Origin: Naegleria gruberi
Lineage: Eukaryota
DNA: 64,000 nt
Direction: 5' to 3' (one strand)
Assembly: GCA_000004985.1 (NCBI GenBank)
Contig: GG738860.1
Part shown: one piece after another, positions 8,434 to 54,362 of the stretch
Layout: every line of letters begins with the position of its first letter
Numbering within the stretch: the first letter of the stretch is position 1
Position numbers and translations under genes: made by a program
The notes under the pieces: model-generated
The model's input: only the letters and a program-made list of their open reading frames with translations
Told to the model about the DNA's origin: nothing
The model's database searches: none

Positions 8434-10141
8434 ATGAGACGACTGTCAAAGCTTGTAGGTCAACTGTCAATTAGTGAAGAAGAAGAAAAGCCTCCTCAAA
8501 CTCTTCGACAAGATGTTAATCCATCATCAGCATCATCATCAATTAACAAACATCAACGAACCATTATCTTTCTAGGATGTGGTGGTTCAGGAAAAAGTAA
8601 GTTTCCATTTCGAATAAACTTTCGAAATACAAAAAGGTTCAATCATGAGAGCCATTCATCCCATACCCGAATTCCTATCTCTCAAACTTATCGATTACAT
8701 GTACGAAAACATCCTAAATATTCCAACATTTATTTTGGGCACTGATTTTGGAAAGGAATTGAAAAAACGTAAAAATCAAGAATTTTTCGAAAATGAATTT
8801 AATCATCACAGTTTAATGATTTATATGGCAAAAACTGCAAGTATTTGGGATGAGGAATTTGCAAAGAAAATTTATTCAATGTGGTGGGATCCTGGTTTTC
8901 AGAAATTTGTCTTTGAAAGGAGGAGCAGTTTCGCATACATGGATGCAGTTCATTATTTTATACAGCAACGAAATTTTAAGAGGATAATGAGGAGTGGATT
9001 TCATCCGTGCAGAGAGGATACCTTCTATTGCATGATAAAGACGACTGGATTTGTGGAAATTTCGTACAGGAGTGGATATGTTTGTGTGGATAGTGGAGGT
9101 CAGAGAACTGAACGAAAGAAATGGCCAATCCACCTGCAATATGAAGAGGGAAAAGTCATTTGTTTTGTGGTTTCTCTTTCAGAGTTTGATGAATTGTGTT
9201 ATGAGGATGATGTTACCAATCGATATGAAGAGGGATTATCAAATTGGGACACGTGGTATCATAATGAACTAGTTCAAAAATTGCCAATTTATATCATATT
9301 TAACAAGATGGACGTTTTGGAGAGGAAGGTAAAGAATGGAATTAAATTTTCTGATTATGTCAAGTCCTATGATGGTGATGATAATGATCCAGAGGCAATT
9401 TCAGAATTTATCATTCAAAGATATTTGGAAATTGATACATTCTTTAATAGAGTTGTGAAACATTTTAAAATTTCTGCCAACAACTTTGATCAATGTGTTA
9501 ATACTATCAATGAGATATTCCACATTGATGAGAGGGTGAGTCCAGAAGATGCGAATTCACAGCAACATTCTCTTCCTGTTCAAAATACAAATAACACCAG
9601 AAGGAAAGTTGTGATAAATTCGGATCTTTTAATAGAGGATGTGATTTATAGTATTTTGGAATTCATGACTTTAGAAGAATTGTTGAACATCTTCTTGTTG
9701 GTCTCAAAGAAATGGAGCAAAGCAGGATTCAAAGTTCCCATTGATTTATTCAGACCTAATATGGATAATTTGGTGAATTCTAGATTTGAGAATGTGAGGA
9801 GTTTGAGTTTGCAATCAACATTTATGCAACGACGTCATATTGAACAGTTAGCTCACAATCCAATGTTTAAAAAATTGACCTATCTCAATCTGAGTAATAA
9901 CTACTCTCTATATATGCCTGATTGGAGCTATTTATTTGAACATAATCAATTTAAATATTTGGAGAAAATAGCATTGGATGATTGCTATCTTAATTCATCA
10001 CTCGTTGATTTCCTTCTCAAAATGCCAAGATTAAAAGAAGTCTCCCTACTTGGTAATCATTTATCACCTCTAGATTTGAAACGGATTAATCATATTTTGA
10101 AGGAAGACTTTGAAGATCCACTATTGGATTTGGAAAGGTAA
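8434..10141 (+). CDS. G-protein alpha subunit-like domain fused to a C-terminal F-box-like motif and leucine-rich repeats; two exons
   Basis: Exon 1 runs 8434 to about 8596 and ends at the P-loop (IIFLGCGGSGKS). A GTAAGT..AG intron of about 40 nt follows. Exon 2 runs from about 8637 to 10141. The spliced junction reads GKS|SIMRAIH, matching the G-alpha sequence GKSTIVKQMKIIH. Later G-alpha motifs are present: DSGGQRTERKKW (the DVGGQRSERKKW switch II) and FNKMD (NKxD). After these come an F-box-like segment (LLIEDVIYSILEFMTLEELLNIFLLVSKKW) and LRRs. The switch-I catalytic Arg in RVKTTGI reads MIKTTGF here. Confidence 0.75.
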
Positions 10142-10207: not shown

Positions 10208-10666
10208 TTAACCTCCTCTCAATCTCAAAACTAAATGAACTGTTGAATCCTTTTGAAGATTGTAATCGGAGAGTTGTCTTCCATCTTCTAATTGTTTACC
10301 TGCATAAATCAATCTTTGTTGATCAGATGGAATACCTTCCTTATCAAAGATCTTTTGTTTCATATTTTGAATAGTATCATTTGATTCCATTTCAATTGTA
10401 ATTGTCTTTCCAGTTAGGGTTTTAACAAAGAGTTGCATACCACCTCTCAATCTCAATACCAAGTGAAGAGTAGAGTCTTTTTGAATATTGTAATCATTGA
10501 TCGTTCTGCCATCTTCCAATTGTTTACCAGCATAGATGAGTCTTTGTTGTTCTGGTGGAATACCTTCCTTATCTTGAACTTTTCTTTTAACATTCTCAAT
10601 TGAATCATTTGATTCAACTTCCAATGTGATGGTTTTTCCAGTAAGTGTCTTGACGAATAATTGCAT
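10208..10666 (-). CDS. tandem di-ubiquitin-like protein (two divergent ubiquitin repeats, each ending LRLRGG)
   Basis: 152 aa, made of two 76-aa repeats. Repeat 1 differs from canonical ubiquitin at about 11 of 76 positions and repeat 2 at about 13 of 76. The canonical ubiquitin lysine positions K6, K11, K27, K29, K33, K48 and K63 (checked by eye on repeat 1) and the C-terminal GG are retained. Confidence 0.85.
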
Positions 10667-49338: not shown

Positions 49339-52042
49339 TTAATCCTTTTTAACCTCTTCTTGACTATCAGAGGCCTTCTTTGGTCTTACAAATCTACTCT
49401 TTGCCTTATTGACTGTTGGTTCAGAATCATTGGCATGATTATCTGTCGTTGTGCCAACAATATTTCTAGCAGTGGATTGTGGTTCTTCCTCTGGTTCGTG
49501 TATGACCATTTGATCTTGTTCATCATCATCGTCATCATCACTATCACCTCCCTTTGGTGTTGGTTTCAGCTTCTTTGGATCACTTTGCAAATCACTTTGT
49601 GGGATAGGACTATATCTTCTCTTCATTGGTGACACTTCTCCTAAATTGGTGCTCATACCACTTGGTGGAACAGTAGTGGTAGGTTGTTGAGGTTGAGGTG
49701 GAGGACCTTGTTGCATTGGAGGTTGTGAAACTGGATAGTAAGGTGGCTGTGTCACTTGTGGAGAAGCTCCAACTACTTGTGATGATGGTGGAGGATTACT
49801 TGGTGCATTTCCATAAGGTGGTTGATTTGAAGGTGGTTGAGTTGTTCCATTAGTGGCACTAGTTGTTGGTGGAGGTTGTTGATAGGCTTGTTGTTGAGGT
49901 GGTGAATTATGTGGAGGGAAAGTAACATTATTAGATGTTGGATATGGTGAAAGAACTTCTTTAGGACCTTGAGAAGGTTGTGAAATACCAACAGGAGTGG
50001 ATTGAGAACCTCCTAATGGTTGTTGTTGTTGTTGAGAGAATGAAGGAGGATTCACATTGGCTGTACTTGCTGGTGGTGGATTATTGAGTGGTGGTGGATG
50101 TGAATAACTTGAGCCACCCCCAGTGCTAGTAGGACCATTGTAAGAACTTGCTGAACCTCCTTGTGGTTGCCTTTCTTGGAGTCTTTCTTGAAGTCTTTCT
50201 TGAGGTGGAGGCAAATAGTGTTGTTCCATTGGTGGTTGTCCATAACCATTCAAATTGTTTTGTGGACCATTCTGAGGTGGTAAATTTGTTGGAGGTTCCA
50301 ATTTTGGATAACGATCAACAGAATGATATGGTGGAGCTTGTGATGCTGGATTTGGTGGAGGATAATTACCAGGAGGATTTGGAAGGCCCAATGATTGAAT
50401 ATTTGGATTTGGTTGAGTATTACCAGCTGATTGAGGACCAGGGAATATGCCTGATTGGAATCCTGATTGAGGACCAGCAGTTGGTGGTTCAACAGCAGTC
50501 AAATTCTTTGGTTCTTCTGGATTACCTCTATCCATATTCTTAAGGAACATTAAACGTTGTTGAATGTGCTCATTATTTTGATCCAAATCAGCTGCACGTT
50601 GATAAGCGTCCAAAGCATCTGGAATTTGTGAACATGATTCGTACAGAGTACCCAAATCATACCAAACTTCACTCAAAAATGGATTCAATCTAATAGCTCT
50701 ACTATATGCATCCAAAGCATCCCTATATTGATTAATTTGATAATACAAGACACCAATTGAGCACCAGAAAGTTGGATTCTTTCCATCTCTGAAAACAGCT
50801 TGTTGGTAGGCATTGTATGCATAACGATATCTCTTTTGTGCCATAAAGCAACGTCCTAATAAATACCATGTTTGTCCACTTGATGGATCAGCATCAATAG
50901 ATTGTTGTAAATAAGTGATGGCTGTTTCTAAATTTTGGAATTCAGTATTTTGATGATAAAGCCATCCCAATTGTTGAAGAACCTTACTGTGGTTTGGATT
51001 GAATTTGAGTACCTTTTCGTATGAATTCTTTGCTTCTTGGAAATCCTTCTTTAATTCGTAAACGTGACCGATTTGGAACCAAATATCTGCTTCCGTCAAT
51101 GGTGGTGGTGGATTTTTACGAATTATTCCAAAACATTCCAAGCTTTGTTCATACTTCTTTTGTTGTTTGTATATAATACCTAGACGGAAGTAGATTTCAT
51201 TGATTTTTTCGAATTGTGCATCCATTTTCAATACACTTCTAAAAGCTTCTTCGGCATTGTCCAAACTATTGTATCTTTCATAGAGGATACCAATTCCGTA
51301 CCATAAATGTGGATCTTGTTTTGTTCTATTTTGTAATTTAGCATTGTAGATGGCTTGATGATAGGCAGTGTAAGCTTTAGTAAGATCGTCCATCATTAAA
51401 AAACAATGTCCCAGATTACCCCAGATTTCTGTATTGTTATCTTCGGTTTGAAGGGCAGTGTGATAATATTCGACTGCTTTTTGGAAATCTGGAGGATCCT
51501 TCATTCTATAAATTGAGGCAATACTCGTCAGAGCTTGAACATGATATTGATTATAACGTAAGATTCTCTCATAATAGTGAATGGCTTTATCGGCTTCATT
51601 CATAGACTCGGCAAGTTTACCTATTATAAAAGTATACACACAATGTTATTGTTCGCATATCATGATGTGTCGTGAGTTGTGTATATCATTTGATGATGTT
51701 GTTATTGTTGCAATAAAGATGATAATGCAATACAATGTTGATGAAATTAAAAGGTAACAATATTATGTTAAAAATCGAGATGGGCCATAGTACCGTAAAA
51801 ATGCGGGACAATTTAGCAGAAAGGGAAGCATCAATATTTGACACGTCATTGGGAATTTGGCCATTCATAATTATTAGCAACACACAATTTTGTTGTTGAA
51901 TAATAAAGCAGACAGTAATCCAACATTATCATTAGAATATGTAATACTTACCTAACCTCATCCAAATTTTTTCATTCTCCATATCCAATCTGGCATTAAT
52001 TGGACCAGGTGGAGGGCCATTAGGAGGATATCCACTATTCAT
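49339..52042 (-). CDS. Ssn6/Cyc8-like TPR transcriptional corepressor (dictyostelid trfA-like) with P/Q-rich C-terminus; 2 exons
   Basis: Exon 1 is about 51952-52042 (MNSGYPPNGPPPGPINARLDMENEKIWMRLG, phase 1) and ends at a GTAAGT donor. An intron of about 331 nt follows. Exon 2 runs 49339 to about 51620 from acceptor ...ataatag. The junction ...IWMRLG|KLAESMNEADKAIHYYERIL matches Cyc8 ETWLSIASLAETLGDGDRA. Ten TPRs are followed by a long P/Q/S-rich tail. Confidence 0.75.
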
Positions 52043-52837: not shown

Positions 52838-54362
52838 ATGTTGGCCATTCATCATCATCACAAACAACAAGAACACGAATTGGAAAGTCTAAAACAAAAT
52901 TATAAATTTAATATTGAAGCAGTTTTTGATCATGAAAGTGCTCGTGATTGTTTCCGAAAGTTTTTAAAGGATAATTTGAATGAAGATCCTTTCATGTTTT
53001 ATGAAATGGTTGAAAAGTATCAAAAAACAAGATTGGACAAGAATAGATTTGATATGGCTGTGGAAATTATGAATACTTTTATTGTTGTGAGTGCCAAACA
53101 TGAATTAAACTTGTCAATGACTATTAGAAATGATATTCTAAAGAATTGGAAGGTGATTCAGGAGCTAAATGAAGGGAAATCTGCTGAATTAATGGAATGT
53201 CCAACTGACTTGTTCCAAAAAGCTCAGAATGTCATCTTTTCCGAATTGAAACAAGATAATTTTCCAAGATTTATCGATTCTGAACAATTTGTAAAATATT
53301 TAAAGAAGGAAGCTAGAAAATCACAATTCAAGGGCTCACCAGCAACATTGTTAGACTTGTTGGGATCGAAAAAGGCAATGGAAAGGTCAGATAGTGGTCT
53401 ATCACATGAATTGACTGAATCCGGCTCTTTGGAAGACATGTCAGTGGTAGAAAACAAACCTTCAACTATTGCAGATAATGATAGACCTCTTGTTGATCCA
53501 CATTCTGTCTACATTTCATCAAAGGATTATGATATTGTGAATGAATTGATTTCTTCATTGAATGATAGTAGTAGATGGAAAGTAGTTGAAGAAAAGACAG
53601 GTATGAAAACATTGACCAGTGCTCATAATTATTATCTGAACCCATCAGATGGAGCTCTTCCTTTAATTTGTTTCACTGGTCTCGCTAAGGGAAATCACAA
53701 GGAATTATTTAATTTGATTTTTTCACAACATTTCGAAAAGAAAATGAGTGCTCTCCAAAAGAGGAAATTACAATTGGACTATATCAAAATTAATCCAGAG
53801 AATGGTGTGGATTATCCTAATTCAATAATTTACTCGGAACTCGATGTATGTATTCTTTTCAATTCTCAAATAATAATTAATTGAATTATTACAACAGACT
53901 CACTTTCCAATATCTAAAAGAGACCTAGTACTAGCCAAGACAGTTATACCAGATCTTTACAATCCAGAAACTGATGATTTTGATCGATATTCCATAATTC
54001 AGAAACCATGCACTCATCAAGATGCTCCAATCTCTAAGGAATTTATCAGAGTTTCACTCTTCTCAGCAATAATTGTAGAGAAAAAGACTAATGACACTTT
54101 GAGATACTACATGTTTGATTTTATGGATTTGAAAGGAAAAGTTCCAAAGAAACTCTTATCAGGAATTGCACGTTTTGCTGCTAAGGAATTTCATAAATAT
54201 CTCCAAAAACAATTTATCAATCCCAGAGATGGACGAATCAAATCACCCTCAGCCGATTCACCAACAGAAGAAGAATTATATAGCTCTGAAGGAATGGTTG
54301 AGTTGCTTCATGATCATATCAATTACATTCGAGAACACATTCTCCCAAAGAATACACTCTAA
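52838..54362 (+). CDS. RGS domain protein with C-terminal START lipid-transfer domain; 2 exons
   Basis: Exon 1 runs 52838 to about 53845. Its RGS domain reads SARDCFRKFLKDNLNEDPFMFYEMVEKYQ...IRNDILKNW. A GTATGT..cag intron of about 52 nt follows, and exon 2 runs from about 53898 to 54362. The START-like region spans the junction: MKTLTSAHNYYLNPSD...IYSELD|THFPISKRDLVLAKTV...LRYYMFDFMDLKGKVPKKLLSGIARFAAKEF. Confidence 0.75.

What the first reader, a model, noticed from the sequence alone, without database searches (positions are those of the whole stretch)
52838..54362. Unusual RGS-START domain architecture
Exon 1 encodes a regulator-of-G-protein-signalling (RGS) domain and a linker. After a 52-nt intron, exon 2 completes a START lipid-binding domain (LRYYMFDFMDLKGKVPKKLLSGIARFAAKEF). 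The START region begins in exon 1 and spans the junction. START domains normally pair with RhoGAP, PH, homeodomain or thioesterase domains. Coupling one to an RGS GAP domain suggests lipid- or sterol-gated control of G-alpha GTPase activity. This is interesting next to the GTPase-deficient G-alpha-like chimera 44 kb upstream.
Basis: partly seen in the sequence, partly recalled or inferred. Interest (0 to 1): 0.55.

Follow-up and report, generated by a model that had tools for sequence, protein, structure and literature searches.

The report
Naegleria RGS–START fusion protein gene
This is a real two-exon Naegleria gruberi gene. It joins a G-protein "off-switch" (RGS) domain to a lipid-binding START domain, and it belongs to a large, already catalogued but functionally unstudied family in heterolobosean amoebae.

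Summary
Exon 1 (52838..53845), a 52-nt GT..AG intron (53846..53897) and exon 2 (53898..54362) give a 490-aa protein. It is 100% identical to the annotated N. gruberi 'regulator of G-protein signaling 8-like protein'.

- **RGS domain:** Pfam RGS scores E=1.8e-18. The model superposes on RGS8 and RGS4 at 1.2 Å.
- **START domain:** This protein alone is below Pfam's START threshold (14.3 vs 22 bits). Other evidence confirms it: a family profile hits PCTP (E=4.5e-5), an AlphaFold model (pLDDT 89.5) has the canonical helix-grip topology, and the top Foldseek hits are CERT, STARD10, StAR, STARD4 and PCTP.
- **One gene:** The START profile runs without a break across the intron, and a relative encodes both domains in one uninterrupted ORF.

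The architecture is not rare in this lineage. Of 100 relatives, 68 are RGS–START, and all 15 named ones are Heterolobosea (Naegleria, Willaertia, Acrasis). Some add a BLUF light-sensor domain. De Mendoza et al. 2014 already list START among RGS partner domains and count 229 RGS genes in N. gruberi.

Lipid-gated GAP control is plausible but untested. The link to the G-alpha gene 44 kb upstream has no support. Verdict: ordinary to moderately interesting, a new member of a known kind.

The parts
52838..53845 (+). Exon 1 (aa 1-336). It encodes an N-terminal helix, the RGS domain, a Ser-rich linker and the first half of START (a1 to b5).
   Evidence: tblastn of P0001 is 100% identical.
52916..53296 (+). 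RGS domain (Pfam envelope aa 27-153; the helical bundle in the model runs aa 26-175).
   Evidence: Pfam RGS E=1.8e-18. PDB sequence hits to RGS8, RGS4 and RGS10 at E~1e-7. Foldseek hits RGS8 2ode_D (target TM 0.95, rmsd 1.2) and RGS4 1agr_H (target TM 0.93). The equivalents of RGS4 N128, D163 and R167 are N91, D140 and R144, all conserved.
53384..53452 (+). Disordered core of the inter-domain linker (aa 183-205). Its length varies and it is Ser-rich in orthologues.
   Evidence: pLDDT is below 50 for aa 183-205. The alignment shows large indels here.
53519..53845 (+). START domain, exon-1 part (aa 228-336): a1, b1-b3, a2, a3, b4, b5.
   Evidence: AF2 secondary structure. START HMM positions 1-123 map to this ORF.
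53846..53897 (+). Intron of 52 nt, GTATGT...ACAG, phase 0. It lies in the b5-b6 (omega-1) loop of START.
   Evidence: Orthologue alignments have no gap at the junction. Unspliced read-through ORFs from related metagenomic contigs (P0004, P0007) lose similarity right after the equivalent 'ELD'.
53898..54215 (+). START domain, exon-2 part (aa 337-442): b6-b9 and the C-terminal helix a4. It includes the conserved FPxxxRD motif (R344).
   Evidence: START HMM positions 123-266 continue here. R344 is present in 59 of 60 family members. The PCTP alignment pairs PFPMSNRDYV with the family consensus PFPitkrdlv.
54285..54338 (+). Family-specific extra C-terminal helix (aa 466-483), beyond the canonical START a4.
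   Evidence: AF2 helix H466-483, with pLDDT about 84-96 in that block. G468 is invariant and there is a conserved D-G-x-L-E-x-L motif in the Naegleria clade.
54360..54362 (+). Stop codon (TAA).

Best explanation
The locus is a single two-exon Naegleria gruberi gene encoding a soluble 490-aa protein. An N-terminal canonical RGS domain is tethered by a flexible Ser-rich linker to a C-terminal START (helix-grip lipid-binding) domain, which is followed by a short family-specific helix. It is one paralogue of a large RGS-START family that is expanded across Heterolobosea.

Most likely mechanism (inferred, not shown): the RGS domain binds an activated G-alpha subunit and accelerates its GTP hydrolysis. 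The START domain binds a hydrophobic ligand or membrane lipid. This determines where or when the GAP acts, through membrane or compartment targeting or lipid-dependent modulation. The arrangement parallels the RhoGAP-START (DLC/STARD8/12/13) proteins of animals.

Shown here: gene structure, both domain identities, conservation of key G-alpha-contact residues, and family distribution. Inferred: GAP activity, lipid binding, and coupling between the two domains.
For: **Gene model**
- The spliced product is identical to the annotated protein.
- The START profile is contiguous across the intron: HMM positions 1-123 in exon 1 and 123-266 in exon 2.
- A relative, P0016, encodes RGS and START in one uninterrupted 482-codon ORF.

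**RGS domain**
- Pfam RGS E=1.8e-18.
- rmsd 1.2 Å to RGS8 and RGS4 chains from their G-alpha complexes.
- The equivalent of RGS4 Asn128 is N91, present in 56 of 60 family members. D163 corresponds to D140 (40/60) and R167 to R144 (39/60).
- Naegleria RGS domains are experimentally proven GAPs for Naegleria G-alpha subunits (PMC9283941).

**START domain**
- PCTP E=4.5e-5 with the family profile.
- The AF2 model has pLDDT 89.5 and the canonical topology.
- 67 of 100 relatives pass Pfam START at E<=1e-3, best 5.9e-45. For example, P0021 scores 40.6 bits over profile positions 9-204 of 207.

**Family**
- 68 of 100 relatives have RGS followed by START in the same order.
- All 15 named members are from Naegleria, Willaertia or Acrasis.
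Against: - No experimental or expression data exist for this gene.
- This protein alone fails Pfam's START gathering threshold (14.3 vs 22 bits).
- Two RGS4 residues of the switch-I pocket are not conserved: Asn88 is Pro51 and Ser85 is Asn48. G-alpha binding could therefore be altered.
- The ligand cannot be inferred. PCTP Trp101 is not conserved in the alignment; that it belongs to PCTP's choline-binding cage is my recollection.
- The tools returned no inter-domain confidence (PAE) or model coordinates. Nothing is known about contact between the RGS and START domains.
Confidence: 0.8

Rival explanations
1. Allosteric lipid gate. Lipid occupancy of the START cavity changes how START packs against the RGS domain and switches GAP activity on or off in cis.
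For: - The same domain order (GAP domain N-terminal, START C-terminal, flexible linker) is conserved in 68 of 100 relatives.
- A conserved extra helix after START a4 could act as a coupling element.
- Relatives append a BLUF light sensor after START, which suggests that sensory inputs are plugged into this scaffold.
- Precedent from my own knowledge, not tested here: the Them1/ACOT11 START domain allosterically regulates its thioesterase.
Against: - The linker is long, disordered and variable in length (about 50 to more than 100 aa). This fits independent domains better than a fixed interface.
- No inter-domain contact information was obtainable.
- No ligand is known.
Confidence: 0.2
2. Lipid-transfer protein with an RGS targeting module. 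START is the working part and shuttles a lipid. The RGS domain serves mainly to dock the protein on activated G-alpha at a membrane, as the PH domain does in CERT. GAP activity would be secondary or lost.
For: - The closest structural relatives are true lipid-transfer proteins: CERT, STARD10 and PCTP.
- Some RGS domains are known to be non-catalytic scaffolds (PMC3971589).
- The Asn88 and Ser85 equivalents have diverged.
Against: - The catalytically critical Asn128 equivalent is nearly invariant across the family (56/60).
- The Asp163 and Arg167 equivalents are retained.
- The RGS N-terminal half is the most conserved part of the protein: a 76-aa identical run with paralogue P0002.
Confidence: 0.15
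3. Annotation artefact: two neighbouring genes (an RGS gene and a START-fragment gene) wrongly merged by a predicted intron.
For: - The intron was inferred from sequence, and no transcript data were available here.
- Retaining the intron would give a 348-aa ORF ending at 53884.
Against: - START would be split in mid-fold, between b5 and b6. Neither half is a viable domain.
- The START HMM coordinates are exactly contiguous across the junction.
- Orthologues align without a gap at the junction.
- P0016 has both domains in one intron-less ORF.
- 68 relatives share the architecture.
Confidence: 0.02
4. The C-terminal domain is some other Bet v 1-like/SRPBCC fold (for example a DUF3074-like, cyclase or Aster-like domain), not a START-family member.
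For: - Pfam START is below threshold for this protein.
- 12 of 100 relatives also touch DUF3074.
Against: - All top Foldseek hits are START sensu stricto. Other Bet v 1-like folds (Aster, cyclases, norcoclaurine synthase) appear only at E>=2e-4, about seven orders of magnitude weaker.
- The full nine-strand, four-helix START topology is present, about 215 aa long.
- The profile hits PCTP and STARD10 by sequence.
Confidence: 0.03

Closest known systems
DLC1/DLC2/DLC3 (STARD12/13/8): animal SAM-RhoGAP-START proteins
   Same: - A GTPase-activating domain lies N-terminal to a C-terminal START domain, joined by a linker.
- The START of STARD13 is among the structural hits (2pso, E~1e-9 to 1e-8).
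- The logic is the same: a G-protein off-switch coupled to a lipid-binding module.
   Different: - The GAP domain is RGS, which acts on heterotrimeric G-alpha subunits, not RhoGAP, which acts on small Rho GTPases.
- There is no SAM domain.
- The fusion arose independently in a different eukaryotic supergroup.
- The START sequence is closest to the PCTP/CERT group, not the DLC group.
R4-type RGS proteins (RGS4, RGS8)
   Same: - The RGS domain superposes at 1.2 Å (target TM 0.93-0.95).
- Sequence identity is 24-27%.
- The Asn128, Asp163 and Arg167 equivalents are retained.
   Different: - Animal R4 RGS proteins are small, with only an N-terminal amphipathic helix and no lipid-binding domain.
- This protein has a 14-residue insertion relative to RGS4 after the a5-a6 region.
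- It has Pro in place of Asn88.
PCTP/STARD2-group START domains (PCTP, STARD10, CERT/STARD11)
   Same: - They are the best sequence-profile hits (PCTP 4.5e-5, STARD10 0.024).
- They are the best fold hits (CERT 1.6e-11, STARD10 1e-10).
- They share the PFPxxxRDxV motif.
   Different: - Identity is only 14-19%.
- PCTP Trp101 is not conserved in the alignment; that it belongs to PCTP's choline cage is my recollection, so the ligand is probably different.
- There is an extra conserved helix after a4.
- The domain is fused to RGS instead of standing alone or pairing with PH/FFAT.
Heterolobosean RGS-START paralogues and RGS-START-BLUF proteins (e.g. N. gruberi D2VTQ0, D2VW93, D2VHA1, D2VA42; Acrasis kona KAL0486363.1)
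   Same: Same family and same domain order.
   Different: - The window's gene belongs to a Naegleria-specific subclade. Its orthologues are in N. lovaniensis and N. fowleri, at 53% and 41% identity in the A1 alignment.
- It has no BLUF, ankyrin or deaminase additions.

Membership tests
RGS (PF00615) | Sequence-profile match above the curated threshold | tested here: met
   67.5 bits against a cut-off of 23.9, E=1.8e-18, profile positions 3-116 of 117.
RGS (PF00615) | All-helical RGS-box fold that superposes on solved RGS domains | tested here: met
   The AF2 model has pLDDT of about 95-98 over the domain. Foldseek hits RGS8 2ode_D (target TM 0.95, rmsd 1.2 Å) and RGS4 1agr_H (target TM 0.93, rmsd 1.2 Å).
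RGS (PF00615) | G-alpha switch-contact residues. RGS4 Asn128 is essential; the others are Ser85, Glu87, Asn88, Asp163 and Arg167. These residue roles come from my knowledge of the RGS4-Gi-alpha-1 structure (1AGR). | tested here: inconclusive
   N128 corresponds to N91 (56/60 in the family), D163 to D140, R167 to R144 and E87 to D50, all retained. N88 corresponds to P51 and S85 to N48, both changed.
RGS (PF00615) | GAP activity on a G-alpha subunit | not testable with these tools
   There is only indirect support. Other Naegleria RGS domains are GAPs in vitro (PMC9283941).
START (PF01852, StARkin sensu stricto) | Sequence-profile match above the curated threshold | tested here: not met
   This protein alone scores 14.3 bits against a cut-off of 22 (E=0.026), covering profile positions 104-203 only. 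Homology is nonetheless supported transitively. The family profile hits PCTP at 4.5e-5. It also hits P0021 at 1.6e-14, and P0021 passes Pfam START with 40.6 bits. 67 of 100 relatives match at E<=1e-3.
START (PF01852, StARkin sensu stricto) | Helix-grip fold of about 210 aa: a1, b1-b3, a2-a3, b4-b9 and a long C-terminal a4 | tested here: met
   DSSP elements are H228-239, E247-253, E256-266, E274-284, H287-294, H297-306, six further strands from 307 to 413, and H420-442. The top Foldseek hits are all START domains, with E down to 1.6e-11 and target TM of 0.65-0.75.
START (PF01852, StARkin sensu stricto) | Hydrophobic tunnel that binds one lipid molecule | not testable with these tools
GAP-START fusions (DLC-like logic) | A GTPase-activating domain and START in one polypeptide, with the GAP domain N-terminal | tested here: met
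   RGS is at aa 27-153 and START at aa 228-442 in one gene. It is not homologous to the DLC family, because the GAP domain is RGS and not RhoGAP. This is an analogy, not membership.

The most novel reading that the evidence does not exclude
The RGS-START family is a lineage-specific class of sensor-coupled G-alpha GAPs. In this reading, the START domain senses a membrane lipid and allosterically gates RGS activity. In the RGS-START-BLUF relatives, a flavin blue-light sensor acts through the same scaffold. These would be the first RGS proteins directly controlled in cis by a small-molecule or light sensor, and a natural template for optogenetic or chemogenetic G-protein off-switches.
Probability: 0.15. 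Interest if true: 0.6.

Novelty: new member of a known kind. Interest (0 to 1): 0.33.

Why it matters
Naegleria has one of the largest G-protein signalling repertoires known: 229 RGS proteins in N. gruberi, and 28 7TM-RGS plus 79 other RGS proteins in the pathogen N. fowleri. How these RGS proteins are regulated is largely unknown.

A conserved RGS-START family, with orthologues in N. fowleri, suggests a direct link between membrane-lipid state and the switching-off of G-alpha signalling. This parallels RhoGAP-START proteins in animals.

Practically, the START domain of this gene is missed by standard Pfam annotation, so databases list only RGS. The BLUF-bearing relatives could interest people who build light-controlled signalling tools.

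However, the architecture has been catalogued before, and nothing here demonstrates function.

Tried and rejected
**Searches that gave nothing or could not run**
- Foldseek against afdb50, intended to map the taxonomic spread of the two-domain architecture, was unavailable.
- Anantharaman et al. 2011 (PMC3396428) is the most likely place where RGS-START was first described. It is not held in the library.
- The supplement of de Mendoza et al. 2014 (fig. S6) is not held.
- The look-up of encoding contigs had no record for P0001 or P0002. I therefore could not test gene conversion between the paralogues at the DNA level.
- A word-indexed homologue search with the 60-sequence profile returned almost only Naegleria proteins, because of the 8000-candidate limit. 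It added nothing on distribution.
- Literature searches for RGS + START + Naegleria, 'RGS domain' + 'START domain', BLUF + RGS + START, and Acrasis kona + RGS found no dedicated study.

**Ideas considered and rejected**
- A second copy in the window. The paralogue P0002 is on the same scaffold but not in the window, and a six-frame HMM scan finds only one RGS and one START.
- A merged gene model (see rival explanations).
- A functional link to the G-alpha gene at 8434..10141. Its proximity is within chance expectation.

Full report
**What is there.** The window is AT-rich eukaryotic DNA, about 33% GC. On the + strand, an ORF opens at the first in-frame ATG (52838) and runs to a GTATGT at 53846. 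After 52 nt ending in ACAG (53897), the frame continues to a TAA at 54360-54362. Splicing 52838..53845 to 53898..54362 gives a 490-aa protein. This protein is 100% identical over its full length to the annotated Naegleria gruberi 'regulator of G-protein signaling 8-like protein' (P0001). No other ORF of note overlaps the locus on either strand.

**Domain 1, RGS.** Pfam RGS matches aa 27-153 at E=1.8e-18, 67.5 bits against a threshold of 23.9. phmmer against PDB sequences finds RGS8, RGS4 and RGS10 at about 1e-7. In a 60-sequence AlphaFold2 model (mean pLDDT 89.5; 95-98 over this domain), the domain superposes on two solved chains from G-alpha complexes. These are RGS8 in its Gi-alpha-3 complex (2ode_D, target TM 0.95, rmsd 1.2 Å) and RGS4 in its Gi-alpha-1-AlF4 complex (1agr_H, target TM 0.93).

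I used the RGS4 alignment and my knowledge of the 1AGR interface to check the G-alpha-contact residues:
- The catalytically critical Asn128 corresponds to N91, kept in 56 of 60 family members.
- Asp163 corresponds to D140, and Arg167 to R144.
- Asn88 is Pro51 and Ser85 is Asn48, so these two are not conserved.

The domain looks like a competent G-alpha binder and GAP with some lineage-specific interface changes. Other Naegleria RGS domains have been shown to be selective GAPs for Naegleria G-alpha subunits (PMC9283941).

**Domain 2, START.** On its own, this protein only grazes Pfam START: E=0.026, 14.3 bits against a threshold of 22, covering only the C-terminal half of the profile. Taken strictly, the refutation criterion 'profile searches fail' is half met, so I tested further.
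- *Profile against PDB sequences.* A profile of the C-terminal region of five Naegleria homologues (A2) hits phosphatidylcholine transfer protein at E=4.5e-5 and STARD10 at 0.024. It aligns the family's PFPxxxRDxV motif with PCTP's PFPMSNRDYV.
- *Profile against 1.84 billion representative proteins.* The same profile finds 126 relatives. Of the 100 scanned, 67 match Pfam START at E<=1e-3, the best at 5.9e-45. For example, P0021 is hit by the profile at 1.6e-14 and itself scores 40.6 bits over START positions 9-204 of 207.
- *Predicted structure.* AlphaFold2 models have the textbook START topology: a1 (228-239), b1-b3 (247-284), a2/a3 (287-306), b4-b9 (307-413) and a long a4 (420-442). The second used 60 (pLDDT 89.5).
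- *Fold search.* Foldseek against the PDB puts only genuine START domains on top: CERT, STARD10, STARD5, StAR, PCTP, STARD4, STARD13, STARD3 and the Bombyx carotenoid-binding protein. E-values go down to 1.6e-11, probability is 1.0 and target TM is 0.65-0.75. Other Bet v 1-like folds appear only from E~2e-4.

The START call is therefore correct. The nearest relatives are the PCTP/CERT/STARD10 (phospholipid/ceramide) group, not the sterol carriers. PCTP Trp101, which I recall as part of its choline-binding cage, is not conserved, so I do not infer a ligand.

**One gene, not two.** The intron lies after aa 336, between strands b5 and b6. Neither exon alone encodes a viable START domain. Four further results support a single gene:
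- A six-frame HMM scan of the whole window finds exactly one RGS and one START. START HMM positions 1-123 fall in the exon-1 ORF and 123-266 in the exon-2 ORF, with no gap or overlap.
- Orthologues from N. lovaniensis and N. fowleri, and the paralogue P0002, align across the junction without a gap.
- Two metagenomic ORFs called without splicing (P0004, P0007) lose similarity exactly after the equivalent 'ELD'. This indicates that the intron position is shared by related strains or species.
- A more distant relative (P0016, on a 321-kb JGI contig) encodes RGS and START in a single uninterrupted 482-codon ORF.

**How unusual is it?** It is not unusual in this lineage. Of 100 relatives retrieved through the START domain, 65 match Pfam RGS. 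A local iterated HMM finds RGS N-terminal to START in 68. Each of these is a representative of a 50%-identity cluster, so the family is large.

All 15 relatives that carry an organism name are Heterolobosea:
- N. gruberi: D2VTQ0, D2VW93, D2VHA1 and D2VA42.
- N. fowleri and N. lovaniensis.
- Willaertia magna and Acrasis kona.

Elaborated forms also occur:
- RGS-START-BLUF: 11 of the 100 carry BLUF, 7 of them with all three domains.
- Ankyrin-RGS-START (P0047).
- RGS-START-cytidine deaminase (P0053).

De Mendoza et al. 2014 count 229 RGS proteins in N. gruberi. [quoted passage not shown] I found no paper that studies an RGS-START protein functionally.

**Mechanism.** Shown: a soluble protein with a structurally canonical RGS box, a disordered linker (aa 183-205, pLDDT below 50) that varies in length, a complete START domain, and a conserved extra helix (aa 466-483).

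Inferred: the RGS domain accelerates GTP hydrolysis on one or more of Naegleria's many G-alpha subunits. START binds a lipid and sets the place or time of that action. The closest analogy is the animal RhoGAP-START (DLC) family.

Precedents from my own knowledge, not tested here:
- The Them1/ACOT11 START domain allosterically regulates its thioesterase.
- Plant HD-Zip START domains modulate transcription-factor activity.
- Mammalian RGS4 is inhibited by acidic phospholipids.

Because the linker is long and variable, I rate START-mediated targeting or membrane recruitment as more likely than a rigid allosteric gate (about 0.2). A role for RGS as a mere docking module for a lipid-transfer protein is less likely (about 0.15), since the Asn128 equivalent is nearly invariant. 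The RGS N-terminal half is also the most conserved part of the protein. It shows a 76-residue identical run with paralogue P0002, against 51-62% identity in START.

**The G-alpha neighbour.** The ORFs at 8434..10141 do encode a G-alpha-like protein (Pfam G-alpha E=9.8e-62) with a C-terminal extension of about 200 aa. N. gruberi has 229 RGS genes. Assuming a genome of about 41 Mb (my recollection), an RGS gene within 44 kb on either side is expected about 40% of the time. The proximity is not evidence of a functional pair.

**Verdict.** The locus is a new, previously START-unannotated member of a known and catalogued but functionally unexplored family. Interest is low to moderate. The most interesting lead is the family as a whole, especially the BLUF-bearing relatives.

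Noticed in passing
Relatives P0021, P0026, P0034, P0059, P0083 (Acrasis kona KAL0486363.1), P0089, P0117; fragments P0044, P0048, P0078, P0122: Some relatives have an RGS-START-BLUF architecture, with a blue-light FAD sensor domain appended after START. P0021 scores RGS 1e-10, START 2.3e-10 and BLUF 9.3e-27. The Acrasis protein is named 'photoactivated adenylate cyclase subunit alpha', although only RGS, START and BLUF match in Pfam at E<=0.01. I found no literature on this architecture.
   Followed up: partly
P0053 (Logan assembly) and P0047 (N. lovaniensis XP_044546214.1): There are further elaborations of the same core. P0053 is RGS-START-cytidine/dCMP deaminase; RGS and the deaminase are Pfam hits, while START was found only by the family HMM. 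P0047 is ankyrin repeats-RGS-START, judged from aggregate Pfam counts and the local HMMs. Both show that the RGS-START module is re-used.
   Followed up: no
window 52898..53128 (aa 21-97) versus paralogue P0002 (same 537-kb scaffold, outside the window): The N-terminal half of the RGS domain is identical to paralogue P0002 over a 76-aa run (97% over aa 21-98). The rest of the proteins are 33-76% identical. This suggests gene conversion or a very strong constraint. The DNA of P0002 could not be fetched to test synonymous sites.
   Followed up: partly
window 54285..54338 (aa 466-483): A confidently predicted, conserved helix lies about 25 residues beyond the canonical START C-terminal helix. It carries an invariant Gly468 and a 'DGxLExL'-like motif that also recurs near the C-termini of distant family members. 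It is not part of canonical START domains, and its packing partner is unknown.
   Followed up: no
window 8434..10141 (+): This is a G-alpha-like gene (Pfam G-alpha E=9.8e-62, aa 16-291 of the 498-aa ORF), with an upstream exon carrying a GCGGSGKS P-loop and a C-terminal extension of about 200 aa with no Pfam match. By eye, the switch-I motif reads 'MIKTTG' where Gi-alpha has 'RVKTTG', so the catalytic Arg appears to be missing. The switch-II 'GGQR' Gln is present. I did not analyse it further.
   Followed up: partly
window 49339..51639 (-); L001 4482..6032 (-): The upstream divergent neighbour is a TPR protein, which by eye looks Cyc8/Ssn6-like (TPR_1 E=7e-50), with a long Pro/Gln-rich tail. 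The RGS-START gene on the unrelated metagenomic contig L001 also has a TPR-protein gene directly next to it, in a different orientation. This is probably coincidence, and I did not test orthology.
   Followed up: no
window ~11150..11210 (within the minus-strand ORF 11143..16209): A run of ambiguous bases (translated as 18 X) lies near the 3' end of a 1688-aa NHL/EGF-like repeat surface-protein ORF. It is an assembly gap in the scaffold.
   Followed up: no
window 10208..10666 (-): This is a di-ubiquitin ORF: two diverged tandem ubiquitin repeats, each ending in RGG.
   Followed up: no
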